Source: Minisyncoccota bacterium
GTDB lineage: Bacteria; Patescibacteriota; Minisyncoccia; Phycocordibacterales; UBA9973
NCBI GenBank assembly: GCA_039915165.1
Contig: JBDSNU010000018.1
Span: forward strand, 166,617 to 230,616
Direction of reading: 5' to 3'
DNA: 64,000 nt
Shown: positions 1-59,168 of the stretch, one piece after another
How the letters are laid out: each line of letters starts with the position of its first letter
Numbering within the stretch: the first letter of the stretch is position 1
Program-made: the position numbers and the translations under genes
Notes under the pieces: generated by a model
Seen by the model: only the letters and a program-made list of their open reading frames with translations
Told to the model about the DNA's origin: nothing
Databases searched by the model: none

Positions 1-97
1 GGGAATATGTTACCACTTTGGTTTAAGCAACCATTTAGTTGCATATGTATCTTACATATGTTTTACTAGAGATACATTAGTAATAATAAAAATATTT

Positions 98-2693: not shown

Positions 2694-3905
2694 ATGAAGA
2701 ATTTTAGTTTTAAATCAATTTTGGCCCCAGTGCTAGCTATCGTTATGGCGGTGGTTTTTGCGACCCAAGTGTCTGCAATGACCCCAACTTTAACCCTAGT
2801 TTCAAATGGCAACGGGACAATTCAAACAACAGTCTATGCTGATGCTAATGCAAGTGTGATCTTGGATTATTATTCAGGCGGACAATTAATGGGAGCTGGC
2901 GTAGTAGGTACTACTAACTATAGTGGATACTTCAACGGCACTATTAATACTTATCAGTACAACATCCCAAGTGGTGCCCCTGTATTGGTAGTAGTTAATG
3001 GACAGCAGTCTGCTACTACAACATGGCCAACAACCGGCTATAACAATGGCGGATATAATTACAACAATAATACCGTTACTCCATTGCTTAGTCAGAGTAG
3101 TCTCAATATGACAGTAGGGCAGAATGGCAGTGTGACTATCAGTGGTAATGGCTACAGTAATAATGGTCAGTACTACATCGCCAACAGTTCAAACAATGTT
3201 GCGAATGCAACTATCAGCGGTAATACAGTAAGTGTGTATGCGGTGAATACTGGTACAACAACAATCAGTATTTGTTCAAACAGTTTAGTAAATACAATTA
3301 GTTATGGCCTTGGTAATTACACAGGCTCATGTGCTTCATTGTATGTAACTGTTACAGGTAGTTATTACAACCCACCAGTTGTATATACTCCTCCTGTATA
3401 TAACTACCCAACGTATCCTACCTACCCTACATATCCAACTTACCCGACATATCCATATAACAACAATAATAATTACAATAACTATAATTCTAATTACAAC
3501 TACTCTTCACCAATCAGTGTAAGTAATAGTACTGTACAAGTTACAGTTGGAAATACAGGTACAGTAAATTTGTTCGGAGGTGATACTAACAATTACAACA
3601 ACAATGTATATCCATACAATAGTGGGTATAACACTGGCTACAATACAAGTAGTTATTATGTAACTACTAACAACAACTCAGTTGCTACTGCCACAGTAAA
3701 CGGCAATATACTAACTATCTACGGTACAAATGCTGGTAACACTACTGTTACAGTGTGTGGAACAAATGGCAGTCAGTGTGCAACAGTAAACATTACTGTG
3801 ATCGCACCAACTTACTATGTGAACAATGGCGGATATAACAATTACCAAAATCAAAATGGTAACTGGTACTACTCTGAATCCAAGCATTGTTGGATGCACC
3901 GATAA
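2694..3905 (+). CDS. secreted N/T/Y-rich cell-surface protein with Big-like repeats and a (PTY)5 tandem repeat
   Basis: signal peptide MKNFSFKSILAPVLAIVMAVVFA; three repeated beta-rich segments ending '...TVTVCGTNGSQCATVNITV'; PTYPTYPTYPTYPTYP. Confidence 0.5.
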   Translation: MKNFSFKSILAPVLAIVMAVVFATQVSAMTPTLTLVSNGNGTIQTTVYADANASVILDYYSGGQLMGAGVVGTTNYSGYFNGTINTYQYNIPSGAPVLVVVNGQQSATTTWPTTGYNNGGYNYNNNTVTPLLSQSSLNMTVGQNGSVTISGNGYSNNGQYYIANSSNNVANATISGNTVSVYAVNTGTTTISICSNSLVNTISYGLGNYTGSCASLYVTVTGSYYNPPVVYTPPVYNYPTYPTYPTYPTYPTYPYNNNNNYNNYNSNYNYSSPISVSNSTVQVTVGNTGTVNLFGGDTNNYNNNVYPYNSGYNTGYNTSSYYVTTNNNSVATATVNGNILTIYGTNAGNTTVTVCGTNGSQCATVNITVIAPTYYVNNGGYNNYQNQNGNWYYSESKHCWMHR

Positions 3906-23125: not shown

Positions 23126-23131
23126 ATTGTT

Positions 23132-23210
23132 GCGGGGCCAGGAATCGAACCTGGGCCTTAAGGTTATGAGCCTTACGAGATACCACTTCTCTACCCCGCG
23201 ATAGGGTATT
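23132..23210 (-). tRNA. tRNA-Met (CAT), initiator-like (C1:A72 mismatch)
   Basis: CGCGGGG...CCCCGCA acceptor with unpaired C1/A72, anticodon loop CTCATAA, T-arm CCAGG-TTCGATT-CCTGG; architecture parallels bacterial tRNA-fMet. Confidence 0.75.
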
Positions 23211-23333
23211 AGGTTTGGATTGTACAATTCTACGAGGATTATTGCAAGCCATCCTTATTTCTTCTTGAAATATAGCCCAAATATGCTATAGTCTTTTGGC
23301 ACTGATGCACGCCTGTAAATTGGTGTAAAAATT

Positions 23334-23410
23334 GTCGATGTAGCTCAGTTGGTTAGAGCGTAGCACTCATAAAGCTAAGGTCGGAGGATCGTTCCCTCCC
23401 ATCGACACCA
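23334..23410 (+). tRNA. tRNA with CAT anticodon (elongator Met or Ile2), CCA encoded, atypical T-loop
   Basis: acceptor GTCGATG/CATCGAC, D-arm AGCTCAGTTGGTTAGAGC, anticodon loop CTCATAA, T-arm GGAGG-ATCGTTC-CCTCC (A at position 54), 3' CCA. Confidence 0.7.
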
Positions 23411-23564
23411 TACCAGGGTTTCCTGGTATAATTAAAAAAGTACACTGCAGCAATGCATTCGTACCGTCCTCAATATGCGGTCGTACCCGCCCGAACGTAT
23501 CGATTTAAATGATCAATTCAATATTCGGTACGGGCGGGGCTCTGCTGGTTAGAGCGATCAATAT

Positions 23565-23804
23565 ATGTATACTGTCTACGTCTTACAAGATGACAAAGGT
23601 AATTTCTATAAAGGATTCACCAATGATCTTGCTAGACGTTTCAGTGAGCATGTAACTGGTCAAACCAAAACAACCAGAAAGATGTCTGGATTAAAAATTG
23701 TATACACTGAAGAATACGAGACATTACAAGAAGCTCGTACCAGAGAAGTTTATTTTAAAACTTCTGCTGGTCGAAGATTCTTGAAAGAAAAATTGCGGTC
23801 GTAG
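23565..23804 (+). CDS. small GIY-YIG nuclease-domain protein
   Basis: 'VYVLQDDKGNFYKGFTNDLARRFSEH' GIY-YIG core; 79 aa; stop abuts tRNA-Asp. Confidence 0.7.
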   Translation: MYTVYVLQDDKGNFYKGFTNDLARRFSEHVTGQTKTTRKMSGLKIVYTEEYETLQEARTREVYFKTSAGRRFLKEKLRS

Positions 23805-23878
23805 CTCAGCTGGTTAGAGCGCCCGCCTGTCACGCGGGAGGTCGGCGGTTCAAGTCCGCTCGATCGCGCAGAACTGGA
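23805..23878 (+). tRNA. tRNA-Asp (GTC)
   Basis: acceptor GCGGTCG/CGATCGC, anticodon stem CCCGC/GCGGG with loop CTGTCAC, T-loop TTCAAGT. Confidence 0.85.
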
Positions 23879-25479
23879 CAAAGCACCCCTAAACGGGTGT
23901 TTTGTCCTTTTATGGCAAAGGTTTTTCTCAGTTCCGACCGATTTATTTCCTTCTCAACGGCCTTACGCTTCTTATTGATCGGTTCTAGCCATATACACGG
24001 TAAAATAAAGAGTTCTTCGTCCTTTATGGTGTGGTTCCAACCAAGATCCATAAGTATGCTTTTCTTCTCCTCTAGGGATGTTTCAGGGTTATCAAATTTG
24101 GCTTTGGCGGTATGAGCAAAGTTAAAGACCTTTTCAGTGTGCTGTAGCCAGTTACGGCCAGAATCCTGTGTTTCGCCAGCCTTTTGCTTTAAGACTGCCA
24201 TTCGGTCAGTCAAAGCCTTCTTTCTCGTGGCATATTGCTCATCATTGATAAGCTCACGCATTCGCATCGTTATAAGGCTGTCCAGCTCCCTCTGGGAGGT
24301 TTCTATGGCACTTATTTGTGATTGGTACACTGCTTCTCGTTCCTCTGCTTCCTCGGAGTATTCTTCCTGTAAAATGCGTAAAGCCCAGTCTCGGAATTTC
24401 TCTGAAATGGTGTACTTATCTATTTCTGTTTTAATCATCGTTTCTACATCTCCCACGGGCATGTATTTTCTCTGGGTGCAGTCCTGGGCTCCTTTCTTGC
24501 GGTGGGAACAATAATAGAACGTATAATCTTTGAGCTCATTGGTAGTTTTTACAAGCTTGGTTTTTTCACAAGCAGTAATGCTACTACCACACTCACCACA
24601 AAGCATGGCTCCTGTATAAGCAAACTCATGCGTTTTAGCCCGAGGTTTTCCATATCGTCCCAGAAGTTTTTGGACCTTATCAAATTCCGCAGTTGTTACC
24701 ATTGGTTCATGCTCACCGTTACTGAGCTCGCCTCTGTATAAAAACATACCCGTAAAAAAGATATTCGTAAAAATACCGTACATCGTACTTTTGTTAATTG
24801 GATTACCGCCGCGATGTCGTGTTTGTCGTGTTCTCATGCCCCAATCGTCATTCATTATTTTCAAAAGCTTGGGAATAGTGTATTCACCAGTCAGCATTAA
24901 CTGCCAGGCTTTCTTAACCAATTCAAAACGCTCTGGGTCATTGATGATATAGTTTTCTCCACGGACCTCATGTTTTGTATTTAAGTATCCGAGTGGTGCA
25001 AGAATAGGAGCATGACCCTTTGCGACTTTACTGTTTATTCCTCGGCGAACGCCCACTTTCATATCCAAAATAAACTGGTTAGCACTGCCACTTTCCACAC
25101 TGAAAATAATGGCATTGTCATTGGGCTTATATTCTCGGCTCGGCGTAAGAATTGATTGTATCAATCCCTGTTGGAGCATCCATTGGAGCTTGCCACTGTC
25201 GACTGGGTTTCTTGAGAGACGATTTAAGTTATAACAAATTATGCCGTTTGCTTCACCGTTGGTAACACGCTCAAGCATGGCATCGAAGATTGGTCGTTTG
25301 TTTGGTTCTTTTGCCGAACCTTCTTCAGTCAAAACATCTACTGGTTTTATACCGTAGCGTTTTGCAACCGCTTCGTCTTCTCGGAGCTGGTCCGGGATAG
25401 ATTGAGCCTGTTTTTCATCTCCTTCTTGCGACTTGCGAGCATAAATGAAGTATTTAATTTTTGAATAATCATTAGTCAT
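23830..25479 (-). CDS. large serine recombinase (resolvase-type catalytic domain + recombinase domain + zinc ribbon)
   Basis: N-terminal 'YARKSQEGDEKQAQSIPDQ' (catalytic Ser/Arg region), C-terminal 'CGECGSS...YYCSHRKKGAQDC'; 549 aa; 3' end overlaps tRNA-Asp antisense. Confidence 0.75.
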   Translation of the reverse strand: MTNDYSKIKYFIYARKSQEGDEKQAQSIPDQLREDEAVAKRYGIKPVDVLTEEGSAKEPNKRPIFDAMLERVTNGEANGIICYNLNRLSRNPVDSGKLQWMLQQGLIQSILTPSREYKPNDNAIIFSVESGSANQFILDMKVGVRRGINSKVAKGHAPILAPLGYLNTKHEVRGENYIINDPERFELVKKAWQLMLTGEYTIPKLLKIMNDDWGMRTRQTRHRGGNPINKSTMYGIFTNIFFTGMFLYRGELSNGEHEPMVTTAEFDKVQKLLGRYGKPRAKTHEFAYTGAMLCGECGSSITACEKTKLVKTTNELKDYTFYYCSHRKKGAQDCTQRKYMPVGDVETMIKTEIDKYTISEKFRDWALRILQEEYSEEAEEREAVYQSQISAIETSQRELDSLITMRMRELINDEQYATRKKALTDRMAVLKQKAGETQDSGRNWLQHTEKVFNFAHTAKAKFDNPETSLEEKKSILMDLGWNHTIKDEELFILPCIWLEPINKKRKAVEKEINRSELRKTFAIKGQNTRLGVLCPVLRDRADLNRRPPA

Positions 25480-25480
25480 A

Positions 25481-25654
25481 TTACTTGTTACTTGCCTTCT
25501 TCAAGGAGGCATCAAAATCCTTTTTCTCAATGCGGAACTCTTTGCCGAGCTTATAGGCCTTGAGCTTCTTTGCGCCAATCCATCGATAGATCGTCATAAC
25601 ATTCATCCCTAGTTTGTCGGCCAAATCTTTGGCGGTATAAAAGTCTTTTTCCAT
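25481..25654 (-). CDS. small HTH DNA-binding protein (excisionase/AlpA/MerR-like)
   Basis: 57-aa ORF (below ORF-track cutoff) 'MEKDFYTAKDLADKLGMNVMTIYRWIGAKKLKAYKLGKEFRIEKKDF...'; 2 nt upstream of recombinase start. Confidence 0.5.
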   Translation of the reverse strand: MEKDFYTAKDLADKLGMNVMTIYRWIGAKKLKAYKLGKEFRIEKKDFDASLKKASNK

Positions 25655-25691
25655 ATCTTAATAATACTTTACTATTCTTTACATTGCAAGT

Positions 25692-26807
25692 CTATGAAAT
25701 ACGCTTCATTAACTTCTCCAAAATAGCTTTTTCTTGTTCTGAGAGCATAAGGCTATTGCTTGCGCCTTCCTGGACATCTTTCAATTTCTGAACGATTTTA
25801 ACGGCACTTTCACTGTTCATACTGCCGTAGCCATATGATCCAAAAGTGGTACCGACATTCTCATGTCCTAGATTCATACTGATTGCTCGCTTTTCCTCCT
25901 CAGTCAGTCGCTTCTTGCTCAGAATGTTTACGACCAAGTGGCGGAATGAGTGCGGATGGAAATAGGGCAGGGATACGTTCTTGCATCGTTTCTCAAAAAC
26001 CTTGCGTGCTGCTCCTGTGGCCACCCAAGCATTTTGCCCGACTGTTTGTTTACTGTAGCTGTGTTCTCCATCGACAAAAGCTCCTTCTGTTATCGGAAAG
26101 ATTGGGTCATCAGACTGAAAGTCCTTGGACTCAAGGTATTCATACCATTCCATAAAATACTTTTCTGGATCGTCCCAGCCAATAGGGAAGAAAGTAGTGA
26201 GTATTCTTTTTGAGTTCTTTGTTTTTACTCCGTCACCTGGGTTCTGATCTATTTGCTTCAGTTCCTTATCAAAGGATTTCATTTTCAGTGAAATGATGGC
26301 AGAAATACGAGCACCAGTGATGAGAGCGAAGGAGATAAGAGCTCGATCGCGCATTTCAATTTCTGACTTCCCATTAATACCTTCAATTATTTTTCTGACA
26401 TCATCAAATGTGGGCATTTTCTTTGTGGTCCCTGATCGTGCTATTTGAGCATCAGCTTTTGAGAGACGTAAATAGTCCACATCGCTTTTGAGTATCTTGC
26501 TCTTGTAGCCTGGTTGTTCTGATAGCCATATAAAAAACTTCTTTACACGGCGCAGGTAGTTGGACTGAGTAACAAGCGATATTTTCCCTGACTTTGTTTT
26601 TGAAGGTCGAGTATTGATCCAGTCTGCAAATCCAATTGCCCTGGACTTATCGTAAGCGGAAAAGTCTTCATTTTTGGTGAAAGTTTCCCATTGGTTAATT
26701 GCATCAGCATGGGTAATCACGGAACTTTTGGCAAAACCACGAGCTCCTTTTAACTGTTCAAAGAACTCTCTTTTTATGCGCTCATTTTCATAGGTTGTTT
26801 TTGTCAT
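25692..26807 (-). CDS. tyrosine-type site-specific recombinase/integrase
   Basis: box I 'ALITGARISAI', box II 'HPHSFRHLVVN', catalytic Tyr region 'LGHENVGTTFGSYGY'; N-terminal SAM-like domain. Confidence 0.8.
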   Translation of the reverse strand: MTKTTYENERIKREFFEQLKGARGFAKSSVITHADAINQWETFTKNEDFSAYDKSRAIGFADWINTRPSKTKSGKISLVTQSNYLRRVKKFFIWLSEQPGYKSKILKSDVDYLRLSKADAQIARSGTTKKMPTFDDVRKIIEGINGKSEIEMRDRALISFALITGARISAIISLKMKSFDKELKQIDQNPGDGVKTKNSKRILTTFFPIGWDDPEKYFMEWYEYLESKDFQSDDPIFPITEGAFVDGEHSYSKQTVGQNAWVATGAARKVFEKRCKNVSLPYFHPHSFRHLVVNILSKKRLTEEEKRAISMNLGHENVGTTFGSYGYGSMNSESAVKIVQKLKDVQEGASNSLMLSEQEKAILEKLMKRIS

Positions 26808-32776: not shown

Positions 32777-32834
32777 TTTAGGACAGAGCTCAAGAAACAC
32801 TGGTGTGGTAATCAATAACTGCAGTTCTCACTTC

Positions 32835-32887
32835 GTCCACCAGTCCGCGCAACGAAAAAGAACCCTAGAAATAGGGTTCTTTTTCTG
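32835..32887 (+). repeat. intergenic repeat copy C (diverged) with terminator hairpin gaaccctagaaatagggttc + T-tract
   Basis: 'ccaccagtccgcgcaacgaaaaag' + hairpin matches copies A/B; hairpin identical to copy A except one base. Confidence 0.6.
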
Positions 32888-35430: not shown

Positions 35431-35433
35431 TTT

Positions 35434-35587
35434 TTAAATTCGGCACATATACAAACCCCTTATACTCCCGTATCCTAGTTCCAACTGCCTCCGCCAGGGC
35501 GCGCACATTGTCCGCCATAGTCACGTCTGACGTGACGAAGGACGAAGGAGGAACGAAAAAGAACCCTAGGAATAGGGTTCTTTTTCT
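35434..35587 (+). repeat. intergenic repeat copy A (with 44-nt insertion bearing palindrome gtcacgtctgacgtgac) + terminator hairpin gaaccctaggaatagggttc
   Basis: ~65-nt 5' module ~80% identical to copy B; shared 'ccagggcgcgca(a)cgaaaaa'+hairpin+TTTTTC. Confidence 0.7.
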
Positions 35588-36218: not shown

Positions 36219-36245
36219 ATCCTTACAATACTTTGTGAGGATTTT

Positions 36246-36353
36246 TTCAATTCTGGAACATATACAAAACCTCTATATTCCCTTATCCTAGTTCCAACAG
36301 CCTCTACCAGGGCGCGCAACGAAAAACACCCTTCAAATGAAGGGTGTTTTTCT
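36246..36353 (+). repeat. intergenic repeat copy B + terminator hairpin cacccttcaaatgaagggtg
   Basis: 'ttcaattctggaacatatacaaaacctctatattcccttatcctagttccaacagcctctaccagggcgcgcaacgaaaaa' + hairpin + TTTTTC. Confidence 0.7.
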
Positions 36354-58156: not shown

Positions 58157-58909
58157 ATGAAATTGATCACACTAAATACATGGGCGGGGAGACAAAAGGA
58201 AGAATTTGATGCTTTTGTTAAGGCTCATATGGCAGAAACAGATATTTTTTGTTTCCAGGAAATTTTTAATAACTATGATGGGATGACTGGCGACTATATC
58301 AACCACGATGAAGGTAACCGCAACCTGCTCCAAGAGGTAACAGATATACTTGTTGATTTCGATCAGTACTTTTGTCCAATCGCAGAAAATGTTTATGGTA
58401 TTGCCATCTTTTTGAAAAAAGGGATTAACCTGATTGCTAGTGGAGAAGTCATGCTGTATGAAAATCCTGACTACGATAAGCATGATGATAACAATGACCA
58501 CGACCGTAAGATGCAGTGGATGCATATTCAGTCCGGTCGCAAAGATGTCATTATCATGAACGTACATGGGCACTGGGATATGCGCGGCAGAGATGATACG
58601 CCCAATCGTTTGGAGCAATCACGTCGCATCAATGAATTTATTGATTCAGTTGGGATGACACCGAAGATCATGGTGGGGGATTTCAATCTTAATGCACAAA
58701 CAGAAAGTATTAAGTTGTTAGAAAAAAACTTTACAAACTTGATCACCAAGCATGGCATCACTTCTACTCGTACTGTGCTCTATACTGGAGATGATCAGCA
58801 CTCTGACTATGTATTCGTTTCGCCTGAAGTACTTGTTGAAGAGTTCAAAGTGATGCCAGATGTTGTTTCTGATCACGCGCCACTTTCCTTACAATTCGAC
58901 GTTTTCTAA
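58157..58909 (+). CDS. endonuclease/exonuclease/phosphatase (EEP) family protein
   Basis: 'ITLNTW', 'FCFQEI', 'GDFNL', 'SDHAPL' EEP motifs. Confidence 0.7.
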   Translation: MKLITLNTWAGRQKEEFDAFVKAHMAETDIFCFQEIFNNYDGMTGDYINHDEGNRNLLQEVTDILVDFDQYFCPIAENVYGIAIFLKKGINLIASGEVMLYENPDYDKHDDNNDHDRKMQWMHIQSGRKDVIIMNVHGHWDMRGRDDTPNRLEQSRRINEFIDSVGMTPKIMVGDFNLNAQTESIKLLEKNFTNLITKHGITSTRTVLYTGDDQHSDYVFVSPEVLVEEFKVMPDVVSDHAPLSLQFDVF

Positions 58910-58916
58910 ATTTTTT

Positions 58917-59168
58917 ATGTACTACGCCTATATTCTTAAGTGTAATGACGATACATTATATGTCGGTAGCACCAATGATTTGGAGCGCAGAGTGCACCAA
59001 CACAATACTGCCAAAAATGGAGCGCACTATACGAAAATTCGTCGTCCAGTTGTACTGATGTATAACGAAACGTTTGAAACATATGCTGAAGTACGTAAGC
59101 GTGAGGGAGAGTTGAAGAGATTGAAACGACAAGACAAGATCGCATTAGTAAATAAAGGTATACTATAG
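58917..59168 (+). CDS. small GIY-YIG nuclease-domain protein (second copy)
   Basis: 'YYAYILKCNDDTLYVGSTNDLERRVHQHN'. Confidence 0.7.
   Translation: MYYAYILKCNDDTLYVGSTNDLERRVHQHNTAKNGAHYTKIRRPVVLMYNETFETYAEVRKREGELKRLKRQDKIALVNKGIL

What the first reader, a model, noticed from the sequence alone, without database searches (positions are those of the whole stretch)
23410..23878. GIY-YIG mini-gene between two tRNAs, with a duplicated tRNA D-arm fragment and a GC-rich inverted repeat upstream
The 79-aa GIY-YIG ORF ends exactly at the first base of tRNA-Asp. Just upstream (23546-23558), 'gctggttagagcg' repeats the D-arm of tRNA-Asp (13/13), preceded by an 8-bp GC stem cccgcccg...cgggcggg (23487-23535). 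A second GIY-YIG paralogue (58917-59168) sits between unrelated hydrolase genes. These compact GIY-YIG genes behave like selfish, possibly homing-type insertions, and the tRNA-fragment duplication looks like an insertion scar.
Basis: partly seen in the sequence, partly recalled or inferred. Interest (0 to 1): 0.5.

Follow-up and report, generated by a model that had tools for sequence, protein, structure and literature searches.

The report
GIY-YIG gene cassette invading tRNA genes
A tiny nuclease gene sits inside the leader of a tRNA-Asp gene, next to a dead, palindrome-split copy of the tRNA's first 27 bases; this layout recurs in front of many different tRNAs in hundreds of ultra-small (CPR) bacteria and appears to be an undescribed selfish DNA cassette.

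Summary
The 79-codon GIY-YIG ORF (23565-23804) does not end at the first base of tRNA-Asp. It runs 10 nt into it, and its stop codon is tRNA U8-A9-G10.

The upstream "D-arm fragment" is a copy of tRNA-Asp positions 1-27 (23477-23556). A 53-bp GC-clamped palindrome (23486-23538) splits it between positions 9 and 10.

The layout is family-wide. Of 82 close homologues from CPR genomes:
- 77 sit directly in front of a same-strand tRNA gene of 10 amino-acid types.
- 64 borrow their stop codon from the tRNA.
- 69 have the palindrome just upstream.
- 66 have the local tRNA's first 8 nt just upstream.

One syntenic relative has an empty site. Another has a LAGLIDADG endonuclease gene in the same slot. 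Several loci show a resident tRNA split around "ORF + a different intact tRNA".

The ORF is under strong purifying selection (dN/dS 0.03-0.18) and resembles UPF0213/Slx1 nucleases. The palindrome is a mobile element in its own right. It occurs in both orientations, nested, and in-frame inside RecG and GyrA genes elsewhere.

Best reading: a selfish tRNA-invading nuclease cassette with an insertion scar. The mechanism is inferred, not shown. The second GIY-YIG paralogue shows none of these features.

The parts
23424..23432 (+). Extended -10 box TGGTATAAT, overlapping the 3' arm of the post-tRNA-Met hairpin (ACCAGG 23412-23417 / CCTGGT 23422-23427). Inferred promoter of tRNA-Asp and therefore of the cassette.
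   Evidence: Read from the sequence. The T-ATAAT core is invariant, and the full TGGTATAAT is kept in four of the five sequences (L003 has TGATATAAT), across the cassette-bearing relatives and the empty-site relative L084, where it lies 14 nt before tRNA-Asp. The simple promoter scan did not call it because the -35 match is poor. Function is inferred.
23477..23485 (+). Relic of tRNA-Asp positions 1-9 (GCGGTCGTA)
   Evidence: 9/9 identical to the start of tRNA-Asp. It occurs only twice in the window, against 0.13 expected. Relatives have the same relic, and it matches their own tRNA variant.
23486..23538 (.). 53-bp GC-clamped imperfect palindrome (CCCGCCCGAACG...TTCGGTACGGGCGGG), a copy of a mobile palindromic element inserted between tRNA positions 9 and 10 of the relic
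   Evidence: Only copy in the window, 0 expected. As DNA, the fragment that contains it (23478-23556) folds at -16.1 kcal/mol, z=-3.0. Homologous elements are found at D-arm junctions in 74 of 85 cases, in both orientations and nested. They also occur outside tRNA contexts, in-frame in RecG and GyrA.
23539..23556 (+). Relic of tRNA-Asp positions 10-27 (D-arm), 17/18 identical
   Evidence: The alignment with the empty site L084 shows the palindrome inserted precisely between GTA and GCTC.
23565..23804 (+). 79-codon GIY-YIG nuclease gene with no stop codon of its own. Its last two sense codons and TAG are tRNA-Asp positions 2-10.
   Evidence: PF01541 at 43.2 bits. Y5, Y15, G17, R25, H29 and E61 are invariant in 27 sequences. 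dN/dS is 0.03-0.18. The AF2 model has pLDDT 95, with best fold matches UPF0213 and Slx1. PDB sequence hits are 1YWL and 1ZG2 at E=3e-13 and 2e-12.
23795..23869 (+). Intact tRNA-Asp (GTC)
   Evidence: ARAGORN. Rfam RF00005 at 68.2 bits. The sequence is identical to the tRNA-Asp of the empty-site relative L084.
23876..23907 (+). Intrinsic-terminator-like hairpin with a T tract, ending the tRNA-Asp/cassette transcription unit
   Evidence: 13 pairs, 7 GC, T-rich tail. Equivalent hairpins follow tRNA-Asp in L001, L002 and L084.

Best explanation
The locus is one copy of a compact selfish cassette that colonises tRNA genes in Patescibacteria (CPR).

Anatomy (shown). The native tRNA-Asp promoter comes first. 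It is followed by a dead copy of tRNA-Asp positions 1-27, which is the scar. The scar is split at position 9/10 by a 53-bp GC-clamped palindrome. Eight nucleotides later a 79-codon GIY-YIG nuclease gene begins, and it runs straight into an intact tRNA-Asp. The gene has no visible promoter, terminator or stop codon of its own. It lies in the pre-tRNA leader and ends translation on the near-universal U8-A9-G10 (TAG) of the tRNA.

How it most likely works (inferred).
1. The cassette enters a tRNA gene so that the 5' part of the tRNA ends up on both sides of the ORF.
2. The downstream copy stays functional. In some loci it is a tRNA brought in by the cassette.
3. The upstream copy is left behind the promoter as a non-functional relic.
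4. Because the ORF borrows its promoter and stop codon from the tRNA, it can be expressed in front of any tRNA. Only a precise deletion can remove it without damaging tRNA expression.
5. The nuclease has a catalytic domain only and is UPF0213/Slx1-like, so it is probably structure-specific. It probably nicks or cuts tRNA-gene DNA at the junctions of the D-arm stem-loop in cassette-free alleles, and repair then copies the cassette in (homing-like spread).
6. RNase P cleavage at tRNA position +1 would remove the stop codon from the message, so expression is probably kept low.

The palindrome is a separate, widely dispersed mobile element that prefers stem-loop junctions. The relic D-arm is a harbour where its insertion costs the cell nothing, or is where the same nuclease acts.
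For: Family-wide architecture.
- 435 relatives were found in species-representative genomes, and 80 loci were fetched.
- Of 82 ORFs more than 55% identical to the query, 77 have a same-strand tRNA starting between -22 and +80 nt of the ORF end.
- 64 overlap the tRNA and use its TAG or TAA as their stop. The overlap classes are -9 (46), -10 (2), -14/-15 (8) and -22 (8).
- 69 have the palindrome within 220 nt upstream. 66 have the first 8 nt of the local tRNA upstream with at most 1 mismatch.
- The tRNAs are Ala, Asp, Val, Thr, Ile, Phe, Arg, Lys, Met and His.
- The C-terminal residues are simply the translation of each tRNA's acceptor stem: RS, GP, PP, RA, RV, GA and so on.

Mobility.
- An empty site is present in syntenic L084/L085.
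- The cassette sits at the neighbouring tRNA-Met in L006. L003 has it at tRNA-Asp, and in front of its tRNA-Met carries a second-type GIY-YIG gene plus a deleted cassette remnant.
- L049 has a tandem cassette. L003 has a nearly deleted cassette.
- tRNA types are intermixed on the ORF tree.
- A LAGLIDADG endonuclease ORF (35.5 bits) occupies the same slot in L083 and uses the same U8A9G10 stop.

Replacement of the resident tRNA.
- In L061 and L071 the two halves of a resident tRNA, with mutually complementary acceptor strands, flank "ORF + a different intact tRNA".
- L060 and L082 have ORF + intact tRNA followed by a 5'-truncated, palindrome-split resident tRNA of different sequence.
- L029 and L080 show repeated invasions.

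The protein is functional.
- dN/dS is 0.03-0.18, with dS from 0.3 to above 2.
- Catalytic residues are invariant.
- The fold is a confident GIY-YIG, closest to UPF0213 and Slx1.

Other.
- The scar tracks the local tRNA variant in each lineage: L005, L007, L008 and the window.
- T4 SegB is a precedent for a GIY-YIG endonuclease that recognises a conserved tRNA-gene motif and drives inheritance of itself plus neighbouring tRNA genes (PMC2330249).
Against: - No nuclease activity, cleavage site or transfer event is shown. Homing is an inference.
- The protein has no DNA-binding domain. It scores 16 bits against a cut-off of 56 on the intron-type GIY-YIG endonuclease model, so the source of its site specificity is unexplained.
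- The ORF diverges about as much as the flanking host genes. Purifying selection this strong is also what a domesticated host gene would show.
- At dS of about 1, the scar and the palindrome arms are better conserved than neutral DNA should be. This needs gene conversion, repeated re-insertion or selection, and none of these was demonstrated.
- How the 5' duplication arises is unknown. It could be a long staggered cut, copying from a tandem or circular donor, or a cassette-borne tRNA.
- An intact D-arm sits right next to the nuclease gene and is evidently not destroyed.
- Only one weak relative was found in viral contigs, so no vector is known.
Confidence: 0.68

Rival explanations
1. RAYT/REPIN-like partnership. 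The mini GIY-YIG nuclease is primarily the enzyme that mobilises the GC-clamped palindromes, a MITE-like family scattered through these genomes. The tRNA-linked gene is the single autonomous or domesticated partner, and palindromes pile up next to it because the enzyme acts preferentially in cis. On this reading the tRNA duplication is a by-product of nuclease action at the D-arm hairpin, not a scar of the ORF's own insertion. This partly overlaps with the best explanation.
For: - 69 of 82 ORFs have a palindrome within 220 nt upstream, several have two, and some are nested.
- In the window the only palindrome in 64 kb lies 27 nt from the only ORF of this family.
- The same element types occur far from any such ORF, in both orientations. 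Examples are in-frame in RecG (a clean 12-aa insertion against 1GM5) and GyrA, and at the centres of other palindromes.
- Insertion points are stem-loop junctions, which fits an Slx1-like structure-specific nuclease.
- The ORF is strongly conserved, like a domesticated enzyme.
Against: - In the palindrome-seeded sample only about 8 of 87 copies lie near a GIY-YIG gene, and genome-level co-occurrence could not be tested.
- Enrichment at the relic can be explained without the enzyme. A non-functional tRNA D-arm is a preferred stem-loop target where insertion is harmless.
- A nuclease alone cannot join DNA.
- This reading does not explain why the ORF is fused to tRNA position +1, or why resident tRNAs are split around "ORF + new tRNA".
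Confidence: 0.25
2. Host-beneficial arrangement. The small nuclease is an ordinary conserved host gene co-transcribed with tRNAs. The tRNA-like leader with its hairpin is a functional RNA element, for example a processing or stability signal or an attenuator, that is kept matched to the downstream tRNA by selection.
For: - Purifying selection on the ORF is strong.
- The relic and the stem arms are nearly invariant among relatives at dS of about 1, while the loop varies.
- The relic co-varies with the local tRNA.
- The element lies in the 5' leader of the message.
Against: - The palindrome occurs in both orientations at the same site: 29 forward and 22 reverse at 21/22.
- It occurs at three or four different positions, doubled or nested, and the relic ends anywhere from position 24 to 47.
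- The split copy can lie downstream of the intact tRNA instead (L028, L060, L082).
- Close relatives lack the cassette (L084) or carry a different endonuclease there (L083).
- Co-variation covers the D-arm part as well, which has no pairing partner in the downstream tRNA.
- No Rfam family matches.
Confidence: 0.08
3. The duplication is a by-product of the integrated element downstream (serine recombinase 23830-25479, HTH, tyrosine integrase 25692-26807) using tRNA-Asp as its attachment site.
For: The recombinase ORF abuts and overlaps the 3' part of tRNA-Asp, and synteny with relatives ends right after the tRNA terminator.
Against: - L001, L002 and L003 have the same split relic, ORF and tRNA but no recombinase genes downstream.
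- The duplicated part is the 5' end of the tRNA, on the far side from the island.
- No repeat of the tRNA 3' end exists in the window.
Confidence: 0.02

Closest known systems
Phage T4 SegB, a free-standing GIY-YIG homing endonuclease in the tRNA gene cluster (PMC2330249)
   Same: It is a GIY-YIG nuclease gene lying among tRNA genes. Its recognition site is built on a conserved tRNA-gene motif, and it drives preferential inheritance of itself together with adjacent tRNA genes. Presence/absence differs among related genomes.
   Different: SegB is a full-size enzyme with a DNA-binding region, its own gene signals and a phage host. It recognises the T-arm motif. The protein here is 79 aa with a catalytic domain only, is chromosomal in CPR bacteria, is fused to tRNA position +1 with a borrowed stop codon, and is accompanied by a duplicated 5' tRNA fragment and a palindrome at D-arm junctions. 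TIGR01453 was not met.
UPF0213/YhbQ stand-alone mini GIY-YIG proteins (PDB 1YWL, 1ZG2) and the Slx1 nuclease domain (6SEH)
   Same: These are the best sequence matches (E=3e-13 and 2e-12) and fold matches. They share the same size class, a single domain and the same catalytic residues.
   Different: Those proteins are not known (to my knowledge) to be tRNA-fused or mobile. Slx1 works with Slx4 on branched DNA. The window's second paralogue (58917-59168) looks like the ordinary kind.
Mobile endonuclease ORFs that carry a replacement piece of their target gene and leave the displaced resident piece as a pseudogene, e.g. the GIY-YIG ORF at the end of atp6 in Allomyces mitochondria (recalled from Paquin, Laforest and Lang 1994; not re-read here)
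   Same: The endonuclease ORF abuts its target gene. A functional copy is provided next to the ORF, and the displaced resident fragment persists beside it (compare L060, L061, L071 and L082).
   Different: That case is a protein-coding gene in an organelle and a single event. Here the target is the 5' end of tRNA genes, across 10 tRNA types and hundreds of bacterial species, with a palindrome in the displaced copy.
Rickettsia palindromic elements (RPE), REP/REPIN-RAYT systems and yeast mitochondrial GC clusters (own knowledge)
   Same: The 27-57 bp GC-clamped imperfect palindrome is dispersed, occurs in either orientation, nests in itself, and is tolerated in-frame inside housekeeping proteins such as RecG and GyrA. 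It is concentrated next to one nuclease gene, as REPs are next to RAYT.
   Different: There is no sequence relationship to these families (similarity to RPE/REP was not tested; Rfam gave nothing). The associated enzyme would be a GIY-YIG nuclease, not a HUH/Y1 transposase. Insertion leaves no target duplication and favours stem-loop junctions.
Integrase-borne genomic islands at tRNA genes
   Same: They target tRNA genes and restore a functional tRNA by carrying a duplicate of part of it.
   Different: Islands duplicate the 3' part and encode a tyrosine or serine integrase. Here the 5' part is duplicated and the only gene is a nuclease. One such island does sit on the other side of this same tRNA-Asp, but it is unrelated.

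Membership tests
GIY-YIG nuclease superfamily (PF01541) | Profile match above the curated threshold | tested here: met
   43.2 bits against a cut-off of 22.6, E=5.1e-11, residues 1-67
GIY-YIG nuclease superfamily (PF01541) | Catalytic motif residues: Tyr of 'GIY', Tyr and Gly of 'YIG', the downstream Arg, His, and the metal-binding Glu | tested here: met
   Y5, Y15, G17, R25, H29 and E61 are invariant in 27 aligned sequences, including the distant paralogue
GIY-YIG nuclease superfamily (PF01541) | Three-stranded sheet flanked by helices (GIY-YIG fold) | tested here: met
   AF2 model with pLDDT 95.4 and element order E-E-H-E-H-H. Foldseek best hits are 1ZG2, 1YWL and Slx1 6SEH (TM 0.59-0.68)
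GIY-YIG nuclease superfamily (PF01541) | Nuclease activity | not testable with these tools
   Needs biochemistry
UPF0213/YhbQ-type stand-alone GIY-YIG proteins | Single-domain protein of about 80-105 aa with significant similarity to solved members | tested here: met
   79 aa. 1YWL at E=3e-13 and 1ZG2 at E=2.3e-12 over residues 3-70
Free-standing or intron-encoded GIY-YIG homing endonucleases (I-TevI/Seg type) | Catalytic domain joined to a C-terminal DNA-binding region, and a match to the family model | tested here: not met
   The protein is 79 aa and the catalytic domain fills it. TIGR01453 scores 16.4 bits against a cut-off of 56
Free-standing or intron-encoded GIY-YIG homing endonucleases (I-TevI/Seg type) | Presence/absence polymorphism of the gene at a conserved target gene among related genomes | tested here: met
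   L084/L085 are empty. The window and L001-L003 are filled. In L006 the cassette is at tRNA-Met instead, and L083 has a LAGLIDADG ORF there
Free-standing or intron-encoded GIY-YIG homing endonucleases (I-TevI/Seg type) | Site-specific cleavage of the allele that lacks the gene, with repair-driven copying | not testable with these tools
   Needs a cleavage assay and crosses
Group I intron with a homing endonuclease in a tRNA gene | Intron ribozyme interrupting the tRNA | tested here: not met
   tRNA-Asp is uninterrupted. There is no intron or other Rfam hit in 23400-23900 even at E<=5
Integrase-mediated island at a tRNA gene | Integrase gene within the element and direct repeats of the tRNA 3' end at its borders | tested here: not met
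   The cassette contains only the nuclease ORF. The repeat is of the tRNA 5' end. There is no second copy of the 3' end in the window. Relatives have the cassette without recombinases
Dispersed mobile palindromic elements (RPE/REP/MITE-like), for the inverted repeat | Conserved imperfect palindrome present at many unrelated sites, in either orientation | tested here: met
   85 copies in the ORF-seeded loci, 50 forward and 29 reverse.
Dispersed mobile palindromic elements (RPE/REP/MITE-like), for the inverted repeat | Insertions tolerated in-frame within protein-coding genes (the RPE hallmark) | tested here: met
   RecG reads PLIEE[PARLNDISRSGG]SDKL, a clean 12-aa insertion against 1GM5. GyrA carries two copies. 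36 of 66 copies have lengths divisible by 3
Dispersed mobile palindromic elements (RPE/REP/MITE-like), for the inverted repeat | Sequence homology to the named families (Rickettsia RPE, enterobacterial REP), or a linked RAYT or transposase | not tested
   No comparison with RPE or REP sequences was run. No transposase gene was seen beside the copies examined

The most novel reading that the evidence does not exclude
The 79-aa GIY-YIG protein and the GC-clamped palindromes together form a previously unrecognised kind of bacterial mobile-DNA system. A catalytic-domain-only, structure-specific GIY-YIG nuclease cuts DNA stem-loop junctions. It thereby mobilises a non-autonomous palindrome family that spreads through CPR genomes, even in-frame into essential genes such as recG and gyrA. 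It also mobilises its own gene, which survives by nesting in the leader of tRNA genes. There it disables the resident tRNA copy and supplies or regenerates a working one, so the host cannot easily lose it. This would amount to a tRNA-replacement drive.
Probability: 0.3. Interest if true: 0.9.

Novelty: new variant of a known kind. Interest (0 to 1): 0.74.

Why it matters
CPR/Patescibacteria have some of the smallest bacterial genomes, yet hundreds of their species carry this cassette, often several copies at different tRNAs.

1. It adds a new way for a selfish gene to persist. The gene gives up its own promoter, terminator and stop codon and becomes part of an essential tRNA transcription unit.
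2. It gives a concrete biological role to the uncharacterised UPF0213-type mini GIY-YIG nucleases.
3. It reveals an RPE-like palindromic element that remodels essential proteins in CPR bacteria.
4. It explains tRNA pseudo-fragments and mis-annotated ORFs or "tRNAs" in CPR assemblies. ARAGORN called palindrome-bearing relics as tRNAs in L028, L060, L061 and L082.

A 79-aa nuclease with structure- or tRNA-gene-directed specificity could also be of practical interest.

Tried and rejected
- **Rfam.** The whole window at gathering threshold and 23400-23900 at E<=5 gave only the tRNAs. No intron, ribozyme, T-box or leader family matched.
- **Viral contigs.** One weak (37%) relative, so the cassette is not phage-borne in IMG/VR.
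- **Literature.** Six full-text searches and two papers checked found no description of tRNA-fused GIY-YIG genes or of these palindromes in CPR. The recent paper on tRNA introns in Patescibacteria does not mention GIY-YIG, hairpins or duplications. The searched library is incomplete, so absence is not proof.
- **Genome-wide REP hypothesis.** I first rejected it because the window has a single copy. I revived it after the palindrome-seeded metagenome scan.
- **Anticodon-arm reading.** I initially read the sequence after AGAGC in L001 and L002 as a degenerate anticodon arm. It is more likely a second, small palindrome at about position 25/26.
- **RNA structure.** A pseudoknot or strand-specific RNA motif in the palindrome is disfavoured, because exact reverse-complement forms occupy the same sites.
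- **Serine-recombinase island** as the cause of the duplication: rejected.
- **Target-site motif.** Only weak symmetric preferences were found: T at -2 and A at +2.
- **Genome-level co-occurrence** of palindromes and the nuclease could not be tested with contig fragments.
Full report
**1. What is in the window**

The window comes from a Candidatus Paceibacterota (CPR/Patescibacteria) MAG. The 79-aa protein has a 100% identical database entry of that origin. The features between 23129 and 23910 are:
- tRNA-Met on the minus strand, 23129-23200.
- tRNA-Met on the plus strand, 23334-23410.
- A short hairpin whose 3' arm carries an extended -10 box, TGGTATAAT (23424-23432).
- GCGGTCGTA (23477-23485).
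- A 53-bp GC-clamped imperfect palindrome (23486-23538).
- GCTCTGCTGGTTAGAGCG (23539-23556).
- Eight nucleotides of spacer.
- A 79-codon ORF (23565-23804).
- tRNA-Asp(GTC), 23795-23869.
- A terminator-like hairpin, 23876-23907.

The two short blocks flanking the palindrome are tRNA-Asp positions 1-9 (9/9) and 10-27 (17/18). The 9-mer occurs only twice in 64 kb against 0.13 expected.

The coordinates are 1-3 nt off. The inverted repeat lies inside the duplicated tRNA piece, not upstream of it. The ORF does not end at the first base of tRNA-Asp: it overlaps the tRNA by 10 nt, and its stop codon is tRNA U8-A9-G10.

**2. The protein**

- The ORF matches PF01541 at 43 bits against a cut-off of 22.6.
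- Across 27 aligned sequences, Y5, Y15, G17, R25, H29 and E61 are invariant.
- The AlphaFold model is confident (pLDDT 95.4).
- Its best solved relatives, by sequence and by fold, are the stand-alone UPF0213 proteins EF2693 (1YWL) and BH0048 (1ZG2), followed by the nuclease domain of Slx1.
- It fails the model for intron-type GIY-YIG homing endonucleases, at 16 bits against a cut-off of 56. It also has no room for a DNA-binding domain.
- Against six relatives, dN/dS is 0.03-0.18, while dS runs from 0.3 to saturation. This is a maintained protein, not a decaying gene.

**3. The layout is a property of the whole family**

A scan of one genome per species found 435 relatives, and 80 loci were fetched. 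Nearly all are labelled as Patescibacteria lineages. A few MAGs carry other labels.

Among 82 ORFs more than 55% identical to the query:
- 77 have a same-strand tRNA gene starting between -22 and +80 nt of the ORF end.
- 64 overlap the tRNA and take their stop codon from it. The classes are -9 nt (46 ORFs, TAG at positions 8-10), -10 (2), -14/-15 (8, stop in the D-loop) and -22 (8).
- The tRNAs are Ala (20), Asp (19), Val (12), Thr (11), Ile (5), Phe (3), Arg (3), Lys (2), Met (1) and His (1).
- 69 have a palindrome of the same family within 220 nt upstream.
- 66 have the first 8 nt of their own tRNA upstream with at most 1 mismatch.

The last residues of each protein are simply the translated acceptor stem of the local tRNA. 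Sequence displays show the common form:

[local tRNA 1..N] - palindrome - [local tRNA N+1..24-47] - short spacer - ATG...ORF - intact tRNA.

On a neighbour-joining tree of the ORFs, tRNA types are intermixed among sister branches. The tree rests on 76 residues and has no support values.

**4. Evidence that the cassette comes and goes**

The flanking genes ligA-gatC-gatA and the 199-aa membrane protein are syntenic in relatives. Within that frame:
- L001, L002 and L003 carry the same cassette at tRNA-Asp.
- L084 and L085 have an identical tRNA-Asp with no cassette. The same -10 box is followed 14 nt later by the tRNA. The alignment shows the palindrome inserted exactly between GTA and GCTC.
- L006 has the cassette at the neighbouring tRNA-Met, with tRNA-Asp unoccupied.
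- L003 also has, in front of its tRNA-Met, a GIY-YIG gene of a second type plus a remnant of a deleted cassette. The remnant is a duplicated tRNA-Met 5' piece followed by ATGTATACATTGTAA, the first four codons of such an ORF.
- L083 has a 203-aa double-motif LAGLIDADG ORF (35.5 bits) in the same slot, and it also stops on U8A9G10 of tRNA-Asp.
- L049 has a tandem cassette.

**5. Evidence that a resident tRNA is displaced**

- In L061 (tRNA-Val) and L071 (tRNA-Thr), a 5' piece upstream of the ORF and a 3' piece downstream of the intact tRNA have mutually complementary acceptor strands (GGGTCCA/TGGACCC and GCCGCCT/AGGCGGC). These differ from the intact tRNA lying next to the ORF. Both pieces carry the same palindrome.
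- In L060 and L082, ORF + intact tRNA-Ala is followed by a 5'-truncated, palindrome-split tRNA-Ala of different sequence.
- L029 and L080 show repeated rounds.
- L028 is a mirror case: the intact tRNA is upstream and the split copy is downstream.

In at least these loci, then, the working tRNA travelled with the ORF and the resident gene was disabled.

In the tRNA-Asp clade that includes the window, the relic instead matches each lineage's own tRNA variant. L005 has ACAGTTGTA, which differs at its first base from that lineage's tRNA (GCAGTTGTA). L007 has GCAGTCGTA, and L008 has GCGGCTGTA with a short D-loop. This implies either duplication of the target itself or continuing gene conversion. 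Which of the two applies is unresolved.

**6. The palindrome**

In the ORF-seeded loci I found 85 palindromes with paired GC clamps:
- 52 lie between tRNA positions 21/22, 16 at 9/10 and 6 at 13/14. These are the junctions of the D-arm stem-loop. L001 and L002 have a second, smaller one at about 25/26.
- None has a target duplication.
- Exact reverse-complement forms occupy the same sites (50 forward, 29 reverse overall; 29 versus 22 at position 21/22).
- Some are nested inside others (L040, L065, L068, L071).

This points to a DNA-level insertion element and not to a strand-specific RNA motif.

Of 87 copies in the 80 loci returned, only about 8 lie within 700 nt of a GIY-YIG gene of this family, and about 10 are in tRNA-like flanks. 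Many others sit inside long ORFs without breaking the frame, or at the centre of other palindromes.

Examples inside genes:
- RecG reads PLIEE[PARLNDISRSGG]SDKL, a clean 12-residue insertion relative to T. maritima RecG.
- GyrA carries two copies.
- 36 of 66 copies have lengths divisible by three.

The element is therefore a dispersed, RPE-like mobile palindrome. Its concentration in the relic next to the nuclease gene is striking: it is the only copy in this 64-kb window. Two explanations fit. The dead D-arm may be a harmless preferred target, or the neighbouring nuclease may be the enzyme that moves the element.

**7. How it most likely works**

Shown:
- The anatomy.
- Its recurrence at 10 tRNA types.
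- Gain, loss and replacement among relatives.
- Selection on the protein.
- The mobility of the palindrome.

Inferred:
- The cassette is a selfish element that nests in the leader of a tRNA gene and is transcribed from the tRNA promoter. The -10 box is conserved in filled and empty sites.
- It terminates translation on U8A9G10, so it needs no signals of its own and can function at any tRNA.
- RNase P processing at +1 would detach the stop codon, which probably keeps expression low.
- Spread probably involves the nuclease cutting cassette-free tRNA genes at D-arm junctions, with repair from a cassette-bearing copy. Precedents are T4 SegB, which recognises a conserved tRNA-gene motif and drags neighbouring tRNA genes along, and the unrelated LAGLIDADG gene found in the same slot.

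I put about 0.7 on "selfish tRNA-invading cassette with an insertion scar". I put about 0.4 on the specific cleavage-and-repair route, and about 0.25-0.3 on the nuclease also being the mobiliser of the palindromes.

**8. Rivals**

- A purely host-beneficial gene with a functional tRNA-like leader is disfavoured. The palindrome varies in orientation, position and number, the split copy can take alternative positions, and there are empty and alternatively filled sites.
- The downstream island is unrelated to the duplication. It comprises a serine recombinase at 23830-25479, an HTH_17 gene and a tyrosine integrase. Relatives have the cassette without the island, and the duplicated part is the 5' end of the tRNA.
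- Chance is excluded by the counts in section 1.

**9. The second paralogue**

The ORF at 58917-59168 is a genuine GIY-YIG protein. It is only 36% identical to the first, has no tRNA, relic or palindrome nearby, and sits between two hydrolase genes. Nothing here marks it as mobile. Proteins about 37-41% identical to one or other of the window's two GIY-YIG proteins do occur near tRNAs in L003 and L036, so the question stays open.

**10. Novelty**

Free-standing endonuclease genes beside their targets and dispersed palindromes are both known kinds of element. Six full-text searches and two papers did not turn up any of the following:
- A catalytic-domain-only GIY-YIG gene fused to tRNA position +1 with a borrowed stop codon.
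- A 5' tRNA duplication split by a palindrome at D-arm junctions.
- Replacement of resident tRNAs.
- The CPR palindrome family itself.

I rate this a new variant of a known kind. There is a real chance (about 0.3) that it is a new type of nuclease-plus-palindrome mobile system.

Noticed in passing
Metagenome loci L104:7841-7876 (RecG) and L140:4321-4350 plus a second nested copy (GyrA); also L124, L169, L153, L145, L148, L158: The same GC-clamped palindromes sit in-frame inside long housekeeping ORFs and are read as P-A-R...S-G-G peptides. In RecG the 12 residues are a clean insertion in the PLIEE|SDKL motif relative to the solved T. maritima enzyme. This is an RPE-like "selfish DNA in protein-coding genes" phenomenon that my literature searches did not find described for CPR bacteria.
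   Followed up: partly
L083:3453-4064 (relative with the same ligA-gatCA synteny): A 203-aa LAGLIDADG_3 endonuclease ORF (35.5 bits) occupies the slot in front of tRNA-Asp and also uses tRNA U8A9G10 as its stop codon. It has no visible tRNA fragment or palindrome. That tRNA-Asp has an altered D-loop (GGTTAGTAGC, one extra base).
   Followed up: partly
window 23830-26807, minus strand: A large serine recombinase (Resolvase + Recombinase + Zn_ribbon_recom; 23830-25479), an HTH_17 excisionase-like gene (25481-25654) and a tyrosine integrase (25692-26807) lie directly downstream of tRNA-Asp. The recombinase ORF has no stop until it has run antisense through the tRNA terminator into the 3' part of the tRNA. 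Synteny with relatives ends here, so a separate integrated element abuts the same tRNA.
   Followed up: partly
L003:2690-2810: There is a nearly erased cassette in front of tRNA-Met. It consists of a degenerate duplicate of the tRNA-Met 5' end (with 5 nt of leader) followed by ATGTATACATTGTAA, the first four codons of a GIY-YIG ORF, and then the intact tRNA. Just upstream, an 85-aa GIY-YIG gene of a second type ends in the tRNA-Met promoter.
   Followed up: partly
L162:~2990-3179 and L128:2914-3057: Palindrome-split 5' tRNA fragments lie directly upstream of intact tRNA-Met and tRNA-Trp genes with no GIY-YIG ORF between them. They may be cassettes that lost the ORF.
   Followed up: no
L028:3270-3342, L060:3343-3418, L061:2061-2135, L082:3343-3418: ARAGORN calls palindrome-bearing tRNA relics as tRNA genes, with part of the palindrome taken as the acceptor or D region. 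This is a likely source of false tRNA annotations in CPR genomes.
   Followed up: no
window 32823-32886, 35524-35587, 36290-36353; and 35431-35505 / 36244-36318: Three copies of a 64-nt repeat and two copies of a 75-nt repeat (64-83% identical to their reference copies) end in ...CCAG(G/T)(G/C)CGCGCAACGAAAAAG followed by a terminator-like hairpin. They lie at the ends of consecutive plus-strand genes. Their meaning is unknown.
   Followed up: no
window 23327-23360 versus 23788-23821: The 8 nt before tRNA-Met and before tRNA-Asp are the same (AAAAATTG). In front of tRNA-Asp they encode the conserved K-L end of the nuclease. The resemblance may be chance or may reflect a preferred pre-tRNA leader.
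   Followed up: no
window 58917-59168: The second GIY-YIG paralogue (83 aa from the ATG at 58917; the longest ORF starts at 58860) is packed between an Exo_endo_phos gene and a GDSL hydrolase gene with almost no spacers. It looks like an ordinary UPF0213-type gene. Its conservation in relatives was not examined.
   Followed up: no
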